This document shows positions 1-3,000 of a DNA stretch of 52,811 bases, one piece after another. A program made the position numbers. This DNA is from Candidatus Woesearchaeota archaeon (GTDB lineage: Archaea; Nanobdellota; Nanobdellia; Woesearchaeales; JACPJR01). The stretch is taken from assembly GCA_016187565.1 (NCBI GenBank), contig JACPJR010000003.1, positions 62,001 through 114,811 on the forward strand, in the 5' to 3' direction. Within the stretch, counting starts at the first letter, position 1; each line of letters starts with the position of its first letter.

Positions 1-3000
1 TTCATGTTGTTGATGCTTCCCACACGTTTCTTGAACGCTTACGTAACGTCTATGACCCAGAAGACAAGCGTGCTATTATCGGAGAGACCTTTATTGCTGT
101 TTATCAACAAGAACTTGCTAAGCTCCATCTGAATGTTGAGGACTGGCTTTTGGGTCAAGGGACTATTTATCCTGACACCATTGAAACAAAGGGCTCGGCA
201 CAGGCAGATCTCATTAAAACACATCATAATCGAGTTGCACTTGTCAGAGAAATGATCAAAAAAGGGCATGTTATTGAGCCGTTAAAAGAGCTTTACAAGG
301 ATGAAGTACGAGAGTTAGGATTGCAACTTGGTTTGCCGGATAAACTCGTGTATCGTCATCCTTTCCCAGGTCCAGGATTAGCGGTTCGCTGCCTCTGTGC
401 ACGTGCTTCTGATACTATTGTTAATGCACCAGAGGTAACACAACGAATAAACAAACTCAGCATGCCTTTTGGACTTAAAGCAGTTATATTGCCTCTTCGT
501 TCAGTAGGAATCCAGGGAGATGCACGCTCCTATAAACATCCGGTTGCCCTTGTTGGTAAATTTCCTGGTTGGGATATTCTTGAACAACTCTCGACGCAAA
601 TGACGAATAGCGTACCAGAAATCAACCGAGTCGTTTATACCGTGCATTGGTCATGCTCATCCTCATTACTGGACCATCCGACTATTAAACAAAGTGATCT
701 CTCTCACGAACGTATAAAACTGTTACAGGACATTGACGAAGTGACTATGCAACATCTCCATGATAACGGTCTCTATGATAAGATCTGGCAGATGCCCACG
801 GTTTTAATTCCTCTAAGCTTTGCAGGAAAAGAATGCGTCGTGCTTAGACCTGTTGAATCACGAGAGGCAATGACCGCGCGCTTTTATCATATGGATTGGA
901 AGATACTTATGCCTCTTGCAGAACGCTTGTTGCAACAATACCCCCTTGATGTTCTCTTTTATGATGTAACCAATAAACCGCCGGGAACAATTGAGTGGGA
1001 ATAATCCTTAGGTGAAGATTATGCAATTCAGAACCTATACCCTAGATCCATTTCAGGAAGAAGCAATCCATGCTATTGGGCAAAATGCCTCTGTCCTTGT
1101 TTCAGCTCCTACGGGAAGTGGAAAAACCCTTATTGCAGATTATATTATTGACAAGGACATTAAAGAAGGCAAACGTGTTATCTACACCGCGCCGATTAAG
1201 GCGCTCTCTAATCAGAAGTATAAGGATTTTACACATCAGTATGGTTCAGATACCATTGGCTTGATTACCGGAGACATCGTTATCCAACCCAGAGCACAAG
1301 TTCTTATTATGACCACTGAAATTTATCGCAACATGGCCATTGCAAAAGATCCGCTTCTTGAGGATGTGTCTTATTGTATCATGGATGAAATTCATTTTAT
1401 CAGTGATGAAGAGCGAGGATATATCTGGGAAGAATCTATTATTTTTAGCCCTCCTCATATTAGGTTTTTATTTTTGTCTGCAACTATCCCCAATGCAAAA
1501 GAATTCGCAGGATGGGTAAAAAAAATCAAAGCACATGATGTTGCTATTATCCAGCACACTGATCGTCCTGTTCCTCTGCAGGTGTTGTTTTACGATGCTA
1601 CCTTCGGCTTAACGAGTTTGGCAAAGATCCATCAGCAGCGAGAGCTGGATAAAGTGCCTGTCTATTACAATCCGTATCACCGTAAGTCATTTCAGAAGCA
1701 GTTTGTTCCACGGCCTTCCTTTACTGAAGTTGTTGGAGCACTGGCTAAAGAACAGAAGTTGCCCTGCATCTACTTTGTTTTTTCACGTGCAAAGACCCAA
1801 GAGTATGCCAAGAAACTTGCCTCAGGCCAGATACTCTTTCCTCATCATCCAAAACTTCATCAACGCATTGGTCAACTCTTTCAGCAGATTAGTCCTGAAG
1901 TTGTCACCTTACCCTCAACAAAGCTCCTTCGACAGTGTCTCGGTAAGGGTATTGGTTTTCATCATGCAGGGCTCTTGCCGGATGTTAAAGAGATTGTTGA
2001 GGTGCTTTTTGGTGAGGGATTGCTCCAGGTGTTGTTTGCTACAGAAACCTTTGCTGTTGGAGTAAATATGCCTGCACGGAGCGTGTGTTTTGACGGGCTT
2101 CGCAAGTATACTGGAAAGGGTTTTCGCTACCTCACCTCTAAAGAGTTCTTTCAGATTGCGGGTCGAGCAGGACGACGTGGTATGGATCGTGTTGGATATG
2201 CCATTGCACTTGTTGATCGGAAAACCGATGATTTAGGAAGGATAAAGGTGTTTACCACAGCAGATACCTTACCCTTACGTTCACAGTTTAAGCTCTCCTA
2301 CAATACGGTTCTCAATATGGTTCATCGTCATAGTGTTCAAGAGATTGAACAACTCCTTATGATGAATCTCTATACCTATCAACAGCTCAAAGAAAAACAT
2401 CGTAATGCCTTTGTCTTACGTTCCATTAAAGCACGGTATACACGCATTGTCAAAACCCTTATGCAGATGGGATATATTCATGAGGGAGAGCTTACTGCAT
2501 TGGGCATGTTTACCATACAGATTTATTCCAATGAACTGGAGATTTCCCAGCTCTTTGGAACAGCATCCTTTTCCTTAGATGAATACACCATTCTGTTACT
2601 GCTTGCATGTCTTGTGTATGAACCGAAACGTGATACACGATTCTTTCATACAGTTCCTTCAAGAAAAATTACGACATTACAGCAGCACCTCTCCCATCAT
2701 CCGTATCTTAAGAAAGGAAAATGGTGGCATCAAATGGAACAGCTCACCGCTTTGATCCAGCCCTGCTATGAACACAAAAAATTTATTGAACTTCTCCAGA
2801 ACACGACCATGCCCGAGGGCGATATCATACGGTTATTCATGCAACTTCTTGATAAATTAGAGCAGATTGATCGTGCCTCACAGGATGAAACGCTTATTGC
2901 AAAAGTCCGCAATGCAAAATACCTCATCCGCTCTTGTTTAGAAGGAATCCATGTGTTCTAAACGTATTCATCCGAGAGTAGTTATCTGGTAAAGGTTTAT

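What a model noticed while it worked through the whole genome (the two positions that open the first line are those of the whole stretch)
1021..2961. Arch-less Mtr4/Ski2-type RNA helicase in Woesearchaeales
g01740 is a 646-aa DExH helicase with the DSHCT C-terminal domain whose best matches are eukaryotic Mtr4 and Ski2, lacking the arch insertion, in a genome with a full exosome operon. It is likely a minimal exosome-feeding RNA helicase of the Mtr4/Ski2 subfamily, separate from Hel308 and ASH-Ski2. Archaea are not known to have this subfamily.
Evidence so far: Call 203: top 5 Swiss-Prot hits are Mtr4/Ski2-type, 38-41% over ~450 aa. Call 208: 320-342 bits to Ski2/Mtr4 structures, continuous over 6-535 to an arch-less human MTR4 construct (6c90), against 115-140 bits for archaeal Hel308. 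Call 68: DSHCT in at least 395 of 822 order genomes but 452 of 10117 archaea. Calls 209, 213: 63 relatives, ORFs 628-669 aa in 23 of 24 checked. PMC10946056 has no DSHCT or HelY mention; search 210 empty.
(Added by a program. Inside this text positions count along the whole contig: contig position 62,001 is position 1 of the stretch shown here. "Call 12" and the like, gene names such as g00115 and contig names such as C1 are that model's own, and its searches are not shown. The text may have been shortened before it was handed on; [...] marks where a part breaks off. The agent that wrote the report below was given it as the finding of a first reader that could run no searches.)

Follow-up and report, generated by a model that had tools for sequence, protein, structure and literature searches.

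The report
Arch-less bacterial-type RNA helicase in archaea
This small archaeon encodes an intact, stripped-down helicase of the HelY/Mtr4/Ski2 family that a published survey did not find in archaea; it groups with bacterial rather than eukaryotic relatives, was likely acquired from bacteria, and likely unwinds structured RNA as an optional helper, while a dedicated partnership with the exosome is untested.

Summary
The gene is real and intact: 646 aa, all DExH motifs, a DSHCT domain, and a predicted Mtr4 core without the arch (Z 39, 599 residues aligned). It occurs in 102 of 201 sampled genomes of the order. A 2024 survey found this family in none of 294 archaeal genomes. It is not a member of the eukaryotic Mtr4/Ski2 subfamily. 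Bacterial homologues (Bacillota, Poribacteria, Ozemobacteraceae, Omnitrophota, Planctomycetota, Fibrobacterota) score up to 455 bits against at most 353 for eukaryotic ones. They form a 100/99 clade with it, and grouping it with eukaryotes is rejected (AU p 1.7e-7). Many of those bacterial proteins also lack the arch. Transfer from bacteria is likely, but the direction is unproven (root test p 0.10). No exosome link was found: Rrp41 occurs in 39 of 40 genomes with the helicase and 39 of 40 without, neighbours are not conserved, and its tree does not track the exosome operon. A Thermoplasmata lineage carries a copy nested in the Woesearchaeal clade. Best reading: an accessory 3'-5' RNA unwinder working like HelY or arch-less Mtr4. 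This scan noted the same family before in three other genomes.

The parts
1010..1015 (+). Shine-Dalgarno-like AGGTGA, 5 nt before the ATG, in the 16-nt gap after the GMP synthase gene
   Evidence: sequence; function inferred
1021..2961 (+). Arch-less DSHCT (COG4581-type) Ski2-like helicase, 646 aa
1021..1590 (+). RecA1 lobe (aa 1-190) with Q motif (F11, Q12), Walker A APTGSGKT (nt 1105-1128), DEIH (nt 1384-1395) and SAT
   Evidence: invariant columns in 29 homologues
1591..2265 (+). RecA2 lobe (about aa 191-415) with motifs IV, IVa, V, the strand-separating beta-hairpin (aa 361-370, nt 2101-2130) and motif VI QIAGRAGRRG (nt 2152-2181)
   Evidence: hairpin role by analogy to Hel308 (PMC4267639 passages)
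2383..2469 (+). Short helix-loop-helix join (aa 455-483) where Mtr4, Ski2, HelY and many bacterial relatives carry the arch or a shorter insert
2488..2931 (+). DSHCT / helical-bundle (ratchet) domain; E534 aligns with Mtr4 E947
2815..2877 (+). Ratchet helix (aa 599-619): R604, Q608, D611 at the places of yeast Mtr4 R1026, R1030, E1033 (Hel308 has W at the last)

Best explanation
This is an intact, naturally arch-less member of the HelY/Mtr4/Ski2 (COG4581, DSHCT) helicase family that groups with bacterial homologues, was likely acquired from bacteria early in this order's history, and likely works alone as an optional ATP-driven 3'-to-5' RNA unwinder. Shown: the motifs, the domain order, the missing arch and N-terminal extension, the clade and the patchy distribution. 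Predicted: the four-domain ring fold. Inferred from HelY and arch-less Mtr4: it loads on a single-stranded 3' tail, splits the duplex on the RecA2 beta-hairpin and pulls the strand past the ratchet helix. Without the arch it has no site for Mtr4-type adaptors, so it is likely a generalist. The freed 3' ends would most likely be degraded by the exosome (Rrp4-Rrp41-Rrp42 present; RNase R and RNase J not found in this genome), but through loose hand-over rather than a docked, co-evolved complex. It has been lost often, more in small genomes, and probably passed between lineages, including once into a Thermoplasmata group.
For: Fold: AlphaFold2 pLDDT 88.6; top matches are Mtr4/Ski2 (6c90 TM 0.85; 2xgj Z 39.3, rmsd 2.7, 599 aligned, against Z 28.8 for the best Hel308). 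Scores: named bacteria up to 455 bits, eukaryotes 340-353. Trees of 38 rows x 621 columns: archaeal rows plus 13 other rows (12 named bacteria, 1 unnamed) form a 100/99 clade (LG+G4) and 99 (LG+C20); eukaryotes plus giant-virus-type rows form a separate 100/99 clade. AU rejects Woese+eukaryotes (p 1.7e-7) and Woese+eukaryotes+viruses (p 0.0028; p 0.021 with the mixture model). Walker A is APTGSGKT as in bacteria, against AHTS[AC]GKT in 10 of 10 eukaryotic rows; the ratchet is R-Q-D as in the Nonomuraea HelY-type protein and Ozemobacteraceae, against R-R-E in 10 of 10 eukaryotic rows. [quoted passage not shown] Arch-less yeast Mtr4 unwinds at a near wild-type rate, 0.49 against 0.59 per min (PMC4267639). 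Accessory: Rrp41 in 39 of 40 genomes with the helicase and 39 of 40 without; presence needs 21 changes on a 61-genome exosome-operon tree against 20.6 for shuffles; median genome size 1.35 against 1.1 Mb.
Against: No activity was measured, and RNA specificity rests on family membership. The direction of transfer is not proven: a root on the Woesearchaeal branch is not rejected (p 0.10, two long Hel308 rows), nor are the 13 sister rows as one clade (p 0.40). No donor phylum can be named. In yeast, arch deletion combined with R1030A or E1033A abolishes unwinding; this protein has no arch and Q at the R1030 place, so it may be a weak unwinder or mainly a translocase or remodeller. Because the exosome is nearly universal in the order, co-occurrence cannot exclude a partnership. 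The exosome-operon tree is poorly resolved (9 of 17 inner branches open).
Confidence: 0.6

Rival explanations
1. Whatever its origin, it has become a dedicated exosome cofactor: it docks on the Rrp4 cap and threads RNA into Rrp41-Rrp42 as Mtr4 and Ski2 do.
For: The core that contacts Rrp4/EXOSC2 in eukaryotes (PMC10411580 passages) is the part kept here. Rrp41 is in 39 of 40 carriers and Rrp4 in 44 of 44. No ASH-Ski2 was found in the own genome, and PF19131, recalled as an ASH-Ski2 marker, passed its cut-off in 0 of 67 order genomes and 0 of 13 Thermoplasmata carriers, so the role is vacant.
Against: The exosome is equally present without it (39 of 40). No exosome gene recurs among the neighbours in 58 archaeal loci; the most frequent neighbour family is in 4 loci. 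The helicase tree has three 100-support clades that cut across supported clades of the exosome-operon tree; Mantel rho -0.06, p 0.73, 20 genomes. The Rrp4 N-terminal loop is alike in 31 carriers and 30 non-carriers. The protein has only 7 residues before the Q motif, against 60-373 in the eukaryotic rows. Its nearest relatives are bacterial, and bacteria have no exosome (recalled).
Confidence: 0.17
2. It is a ribosome-associated remodeller or rescue helper that pulls RNA out of stalled or stressed ribosomes, independent of decay.
For: Streptomyces HelY is enriched 3.3-fold in ribosome fractions under tetracycline and is in the WblC regulon (PMC7157823 passages). Ski2 channels ribosome-bound RNA (PMC10946056 introduction).
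Against: Deleting helY had only a twofold effect. Those proteins carry an insert at the arch site (238 aa in the Nonomuraea row) that this one lacks. There is no conserved translation-gene neighbourhood.
Confidence: 0.13
3. It is an ancient archaeal line of the family, basal to it or on the path to eukaryotic Mtr4/Ski2.
For: The archaeal rows form one clade (38 rows, 100). A root on that branch is not rejected (p 0.10).
Against: A clade with eukaryotes is rejected. None was found in 294 archaeal genomes including 75 Asgard (PMC10946056 section 18). Only 1 of the 131 DSHCT-positive genomes among 301 phylum genomes lies outside the order. The copies in a sister order (3 of 121) and in a Thermoplasmata class (13 of 151) nest inside the Woesearchaeal clade (9 of the 13 were placed).
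Confidence: 0.05
4. It is a DNA helicase that compensates for the split Hel308 gene of this order.
For: Hel308 is encoded as two unlinked halves in this genome.
Against: The stand-alone Hel308 N-half is present in 39 of 40 carriers and 36 of 40 non-carriers. The protein lacks the Hel308 helix-hairpin-helix tail and the ratchet W. HelY does not load on DNA.
Confidence: 0.05

Closest known systems
Bacterial HelY (M. smegmatis MSMEG_3885 / Rv2092c; Streptomyces SCO1631) and uncharacterised bacterial DSHCT helicases
   Same: DExH core + winged helix + DSHCT; APTGSGKT Walker A; R-Q-D ratchet in the Nonomuraea protein. Arch-less 620-700 aa forms occur in Omnitrophota, Planctomycetota and Fibrobacterota, in the same large clade as the archaeal protein.
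   Different: Actinobacterial HelY lies on a separate branch, has an insert of about 240 aa at the arch site, and sits beside tatA/tatC and WYL genes. The closest relatives (Bacillota, Poribacteria, Ozemobacteraceae) are uncharacterised and mostly carry a 130-150 aa four-cysteine insert.
Eukaryotic Mtr4 (MTREX/Dob1/FRH) and Ski2, above all the engineered arch-less constructs (PDB 6c90, 4buj)
   Same: Same predicted ring fold over about 600 residues; about 39-40% identity over the core; E947, R1026 and an acidic fourth ratchet turn are kept.
   Different: No arch, no N-terminal extension, different Walker A and ratchet residues, separate clade (AU rejected), no evidence of exosome docking.
Archaeal Hel308/Hjm and ASH-Ski2 (PMC10946056)
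   Same: Ski2-like SF2 core with winged-helix and ratchet domains.
   Different: 165-178 bits against NCBIfam cut-offs of 887-1216; 26% core identity; no helix-hairpin-helix tail and no N-terminal zinc-finger extension; the genome has its own two-gene Hel308.
DSHCT helicases on giant-virus-type contigs (IMG/VR GVMAG)
   Same: Same family, with a short insert of 107-139 aa at the arch site.
   Different: They group with eukaryotic Mtr4/Ski2, not with the archaeal clade.

Membership tests
COG4581-type DSHCT helicases (HelY/Mtr4/Ski2, broad) | Intact DExH RecA1-RecA2 motor with beta-hairpin | tested here: met
COG4581-type DSHCT helicases (HelY/Mtr4/Ski2, broad) | Winged helix plus C-terminal DSHCT domain ending the protein | tested here: met
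   PF08148 at 45.3 bits, over the 22.7 cut-off; fold matches
COG4581-type DSHCT helicases (HelY/Mtr4/Ski2, broad) | RPS-BLAST hit to the COG4581 profile, as used in PMC10946056 | not testable with these tools
   No COG library is held. JGI labels close homologues 'superfamily II RNA helicase' or 'ATP-dependent RNA helicase DOB1'.
COG4581-type DSHCT helicases (HelY/Mtr4/Ski2, broad) | RNA-stimulated ATPase and 3'-5' RNA unwinding | not testable with these tools
   needs biochemistry
Eukaryotic Mtr4/Ski2 subfamily | Arch insertion in the winged-helix domain | tested here: not met
   29 residues against 242-334; no PF13234 hit
Eukaryotic Mtr4/Ski2 subfamily | N-terminal extension for cofactor binding | tested here: not met
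   7 residues before the Q motif against 60-373
Eukaryotic Mtr4/Ski2 subfamily | Glutamate at the fourth ratchet turn (E1033/E1247; PMC4267639) | tested here: not met
   D611, invariant in 29 homologues: acidic but the bacterial form
Eukaryotic Mtr4/Ski2 subfamily | One clade with eukaryotic Mtr4 and Ski2 | tested here: not met
   AU p 1.7e-7; with viral rows added p 0.0028 and 0.021
Eukaryotic Mtr4/Ski2 subfamily | Physical association with the exosome | tested here: inconclusive
   No genomic signal; these tests cannot exclude binding
Actinobacterial HelY (narrow) | Long insert at the arch site, tatAC/WYL neighbourhood, same clade | tested here: not met
   the HelY label of the reference row is inferred from its neighbourhood
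Hel308/Hjm | NCBIfam cut-off, helix-hairpin-helix tail, ratchet tryptophan | tested here: not met
ASH-Ski2 | N-terminal extension and zinc finger (PMC10946056 Fig. 1 legend) | tested here: not met
   no N-terminal extension, no cysteine cluster

The most novel reading that the evidence does not exclude
A bacterial HelY-type helicase, stripped to its motor ring, was taken up by Woesearchaeales and coupled to their Csl4-less archaeal exosome, repeating independently the helicase-exosome pairing of eukaryotes. It would be a four-protein minimal model of Mtr4-exosome threading, and its onward transfer would mark a Thermoplasmata group as partners or hosts of these archaea.
Probability: 0.15. Interest if true: 0.78.

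Novelty: new variant of a known kind. Interest (0 to 1): 0.42.

Why it matters
It corrects a published statement that this helicase branch is missing from archaea: about half of a large DPANN order has it. It is a natural minimal version of a motor so far studied only as engineered arch deletions. It pairs a missing arch with Q at the R1030 place, a combination near one that kills yeast Mtr4, so it directly tests what the ratchet needs. It sits in cells that have an exosome but no ASH-Ski2 found, so helicase-exosome coupling can be tested with four small proteins. The trees also show that the nearest kin of such proteins are uncharacterised bacterial helicases, which matters for the origin of Mtr4 and Ski2. 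It does not reveal an archaeal ancestor of Mtr4, which lowers the surprise.

Tried and rejected
Complex prediction of the helicase with the genome's Rrp4, each as an alignment: no verdict, score 0.00 against a mark of 0.32; it is evidence neither way. RNA runs: no RNA holder listed. The primary HelY paper PMC4560288 is not held; its result is known only from a citing passage. A 94-row mixture-model tree did not finish; it was replaced by FastTree on 94 rows and IQ-TREE on 38 rows. Whether the arch was lost before or after transfer is unresolved. Woese plus the six arch-less bacterial rows is rejected (p 0.0007), but that test excludes the nested Poribacteria row, and with it the clade is not rejected (p 0.39). 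Complementarity with RNase J: 38 of 40 carriers against 34 of 40 non-carriers, Fisher p 0.26; rejected. Rrp4 residues that track the helicase: best column is position 169, reached by 5% of 60 shuffles; discounted, because the carrier set was the top 30 of 44 by likeness to the own Rrp4 plus the own genome. Recent or foreign insertion: gene GC 0.421 and GC3 0.391 against 0.412 +/- 0.029 and 0.350 +/- 0.045 for 754 long ORFs; the window carries S8e, EF-1alpha and EF-2, so neither a recent transfer nor a bacterial contaminant contig is indicated. The sigma-70 promoter and terminator scan was at chance level. The link to the upstream GMP synthase gene does not recur in other loci. PF10447 was insensitive for archaeal Csl4 (1 of 14 controls), so NF034126 was used.

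Full report
Observation. The ORF at 1021-2961 (+) encodes 646 aa without interruption. It follows the C-terminal part of a GMP synthase gene after 16 nt that hold AGGTGA. Pfam finds DEAD, Helicase_C and DSHCT (45.3 bits, cut-off 22.7), and no arch family. NCBIfam Hel308 models score 140-178 bits, far below their cut-offs. PDB sequences give 320-342 bits for Ski2/Mtr4 and 115-140 for archaeal Hel308. An AlphaFold2 model from a 29-row alignment (pLDDT 88.6) matches Mtr4 over 599 residues at Z 39.3 and rmsd 2.7, against Z 28.8 for the best Hel308. The first Foldseek hit is the arch-less human MTR4 construct 6c90 (TM 0.85). All motor motifs are invariant or nearly so in 29 homologues. The window is archaeal (S8e, EF-1alpha, EF-2), and named close homologues are Woesearchaeota.

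Distribution. In 201 genomes of the order at least 80% complete, 102 have a match at E<1e-50 (own genome included; my count); the next best is 1.6e-31. Six of these genomes are flagged unpublished (G192 and G105 positive; G168, G188, G190, G123 negative). Without them the count is 100 of 195. G192 is also and supplies one locus; no other claim rests on them. In 301 phylum genomes, 131 have DSHCT, and 130 of these are in the order (the number of out-of-order genomes in that sample is not given). Presence is often stable within families (f90 35 of 36, f120 12 of 12, f56 0 of 7). The order of the one outside hit has it in 3 of 121 genomes. The class of a genome titled Thermoplasmata archaeon has it in 13 of 151, mostly as 640-654 aa open frames.

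Relatives. The search of 50% cluster representatives returned many 640-810 aa proteins that outscore eukaryotic ones. A scan of genome contigs with an alignment of them kept the best 80 of 556 loci from 3 of 64 parts of the collection. It named them as Bacillota, Poribacteria, Ozemobacteraceae, Omnitrophota, Planctomycetota, Fibrobacterota, Melainabacteria and cyanobacteria. Against the query, named bacteria reach 455 bits, and the 10 eukaryotic rows 340-353. The arch site holds 20-29 residues in all 18 archaeal rows and 23-44 in 15 of 16 'short' bacterial rows. It holds 132-149 residues with four or five cysteines in 8 of 9 'medium' bacterial rows, 238 in the Nonomuraea HelY-type row, and 242-334 in eukaryotes. 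Lack of the arch is therefore not unique to archaea.

Trees. FastTree on 94 rows, IQ-TREE LG+G4 on 38 of them and LG+C20 on the same 38 agree. The archaeal rows join Bacillota, Ozemobacteraceae and a PVC/Fibrobacterota/Poribacteria group at 100/99; eukaryotes join giant-virus-type rows at 100/99; actinobacterial, cyanobacterial and Chloroflexota rows lie apart. AU tests reject Woese+eukaryotes (p 1.7e-7) and Woese+eukaryotes+viruses (p 0.0028; p 0.021). Against my reading: with two long Hel308 rows as outgroup, a root on the Woesearchaeal branch is not rejected (p 0.10), and the 13 sister rows may be one clade (p 0.40). Transfer from bacteria is thus inferred from breadth (many bacterial phyla against one archaeal order plus nested pockets), not shown. 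Twelve rows fail a composition test. In a 54-row tree all 38 archaeal rows form one clade (100). The nine Thermoplasmata-class rows placed form one subclade (99) inside it, and the three sister-order rows fall at two places inside it, which points to onward transfers. Several P rows treated as Woesearchaeal are unnamed and assigned by clade.

Diagnostic residues. PMC4267639 (passages read) names E947, R1026, R1030 and E1033 as the base contacts of Mtr4; the fourth ratchet turn is always E in Mtr4 and Ski2 and W in Hel308. The query has E534, R604, Q608 and D611. R-Q-D also occurs in the Nonomuraea and Ozemobacteraceae rows; all 10 eukaryotic rows have R-R-E. The same paper reports that arch-less Mtr4 unwinds at nearly wild-type rate, but not when R1030 or E1033 is also changed to alanine. 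So an arch-less core can work, and this protein may be a weaker motor.

Exosome link. The genome has SBDS-Rrp4-Rrp41-Rrp42 on contig C11 and a 642-aa beta-CASP protein of aCPSF1 size. Csl4, RNase J, RNase R and PF19131 were not found (completeness 96.7%). In 40 carriers and 40 non-carriers, one per family and at least 90% complete, Rrp41 is in 39 and 39, RNase J in 38 and 34, and the Hel308 N-half in 39 and 36. Carriers are larger (median 1.35 against 1.1 Mb, p 0.003, kin not independent). Among 58 archaeal loci (50 with 1.5 kb flanks, some from the same genome, and 8 with up to 4 kb) the commonest neighbour family recurs in 4, and no exosome gene is among the 22 clusters printed. On a 61-genome tree of the exosome operon, helicase presence is no more clustered than shuffles (21 changes against 20.6). 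For 20 genomes with both, helicase and operon distances do not correlate (rho -0.06, p 0.73). G022 sits with G014 and G008 in the operon tree (99/92) but in another 100/100 clade in the helicase tree. The operon tree is weak at depth, so this argues against tight co-inheritance without excluding binding.

Mechanism. By analogy with HelY (PMC8931766 passage citing Uson 2015) and Mtr4, the protein most likely binds a 3' single-stranded RNA tail across both RecA lobes, uses ATP to step 3' to 5', separates strands on the RecA2 hairpin and passes the strand along the ratchet helix. With neither arch nor N-terminal arm it lacks the known adaptor sites. I put 0.6 on a stand-alone accessory RNA unwinder whose products the exosome degrades without a fixed complex, 0.17 on a docked exosome cofactor, 0.13 on ribosome remodelling (Streptomyces HelY, PMC7157823 passages), and 0.05 each on an ancient archaeal line and on DNA repair.

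What is in print. PMC10946056 (abstract, section 18 and passages read) found no COG4581 protein in 294 archaeal genomes. 'Woese' does not occur in its main text or in the one supplementary file held; strain codes in that file could hide names, and other supplements may exist. Searches that found no paper on this protein: Mtr4+archaea+DPANN+helicase (only that paper), Woesearchaeota+exosome+helicase (0), DSHCT+archaea (2 unrelated), COG4581 (that paper), a five-term DPANN transfer search (0), HelY+helicase+Ski2 and Mtr4+Ski2+bacterial homolog/ISE2 (listings only). The library lacks most subscription journals. PMC7509114 was read at one passage and adds nothing. Earlier notes of this scan describe the same family in three other genomes and reach a similar verdict; I looked after my trees were built, and they are not independent evidence.

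Verdict. This is a natural arch-less variant of a known helicase family, new for archaea in the literature searched, of likely bacterial origin, with no evidence yet for a dedicated exosome role. Interest 0.42.

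Noticed in passing
G000:C33:33824-34558 (-) and G000:C15:955-2529 (+) (L250, L251): Hel308 is split into two unlinked genes at the RecA1/RecA2 boundary (model positions 4-217 and 223-709). All 75 N-half hits in 80 order genomes lie in open frames of 197-304 aa. A three-term paper search found nothing; earlier scan notes already describe it.
   Followed up: partly
L079, L282-L289 (class of G396): 13 of 151 genomes of a Thermoplasmata class carry the arch-less helicase; the nine placed form one clade inside the Woesearchaeal diversity, nearest G063: a candidate DPANN-to-partner transfer.
   Followed up: partly
L032, L036, L052, L054, L101 (arch site): Bacillota, Poribacteria, Ozemobacteraceae and Melainabacteria homologues carry a 130-150 aa insert with about four cysteines (one near its start, the rest near its end or in two pairs), a possible zinc-binding mini-arch between no arch and the full arch.
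   Followed up: no
L216:1489-2205 (G000:C11): Rrp41 of this order reads D-L-x-Y-x-E-E where two solved archaeal Rrp41 proteins read D-L-x-K-E-E-D; E stands at the last place in 59 of 61 genomes. That this aspartate is catalytic is recalled. All 78 hits fall under the TIGR02065 cut-off.
   Followed up: partly
G000 whole genome: RNase J was not found here although 72 of 80 order genomes have it; Csl4 was not found either.
   Followed up: partly
L112-L191 (viral contigs): Giant-virus-type contigs widely encode DSHCT helicases of about 720-890 aa that form the sister group of eukaryotic Mtr4+Ski2.
   Followed up: partly
window 6776-8325: Two adjacent, overlapping genes with asparaginase N-terminal domains only: one single (166 aa), one tandem (351 aa).
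   Followed up: no
window 28367-30349 (-): Thymidylate synthase followed by two DHFR-fold genes.
   Followed up: no
window 42787-50861 (+): A 454-aa protein with a weak YD-shell match, a 184-aa ORF and a 1931-aa ORF; the last was not scanned.
   Followed up: no
window 3043-5878: Three ORFs downstream of the helicase (295, 128 and 418 aa) have no Pfam match; the first begins like a lipoprotein signal.
   Followed up: no
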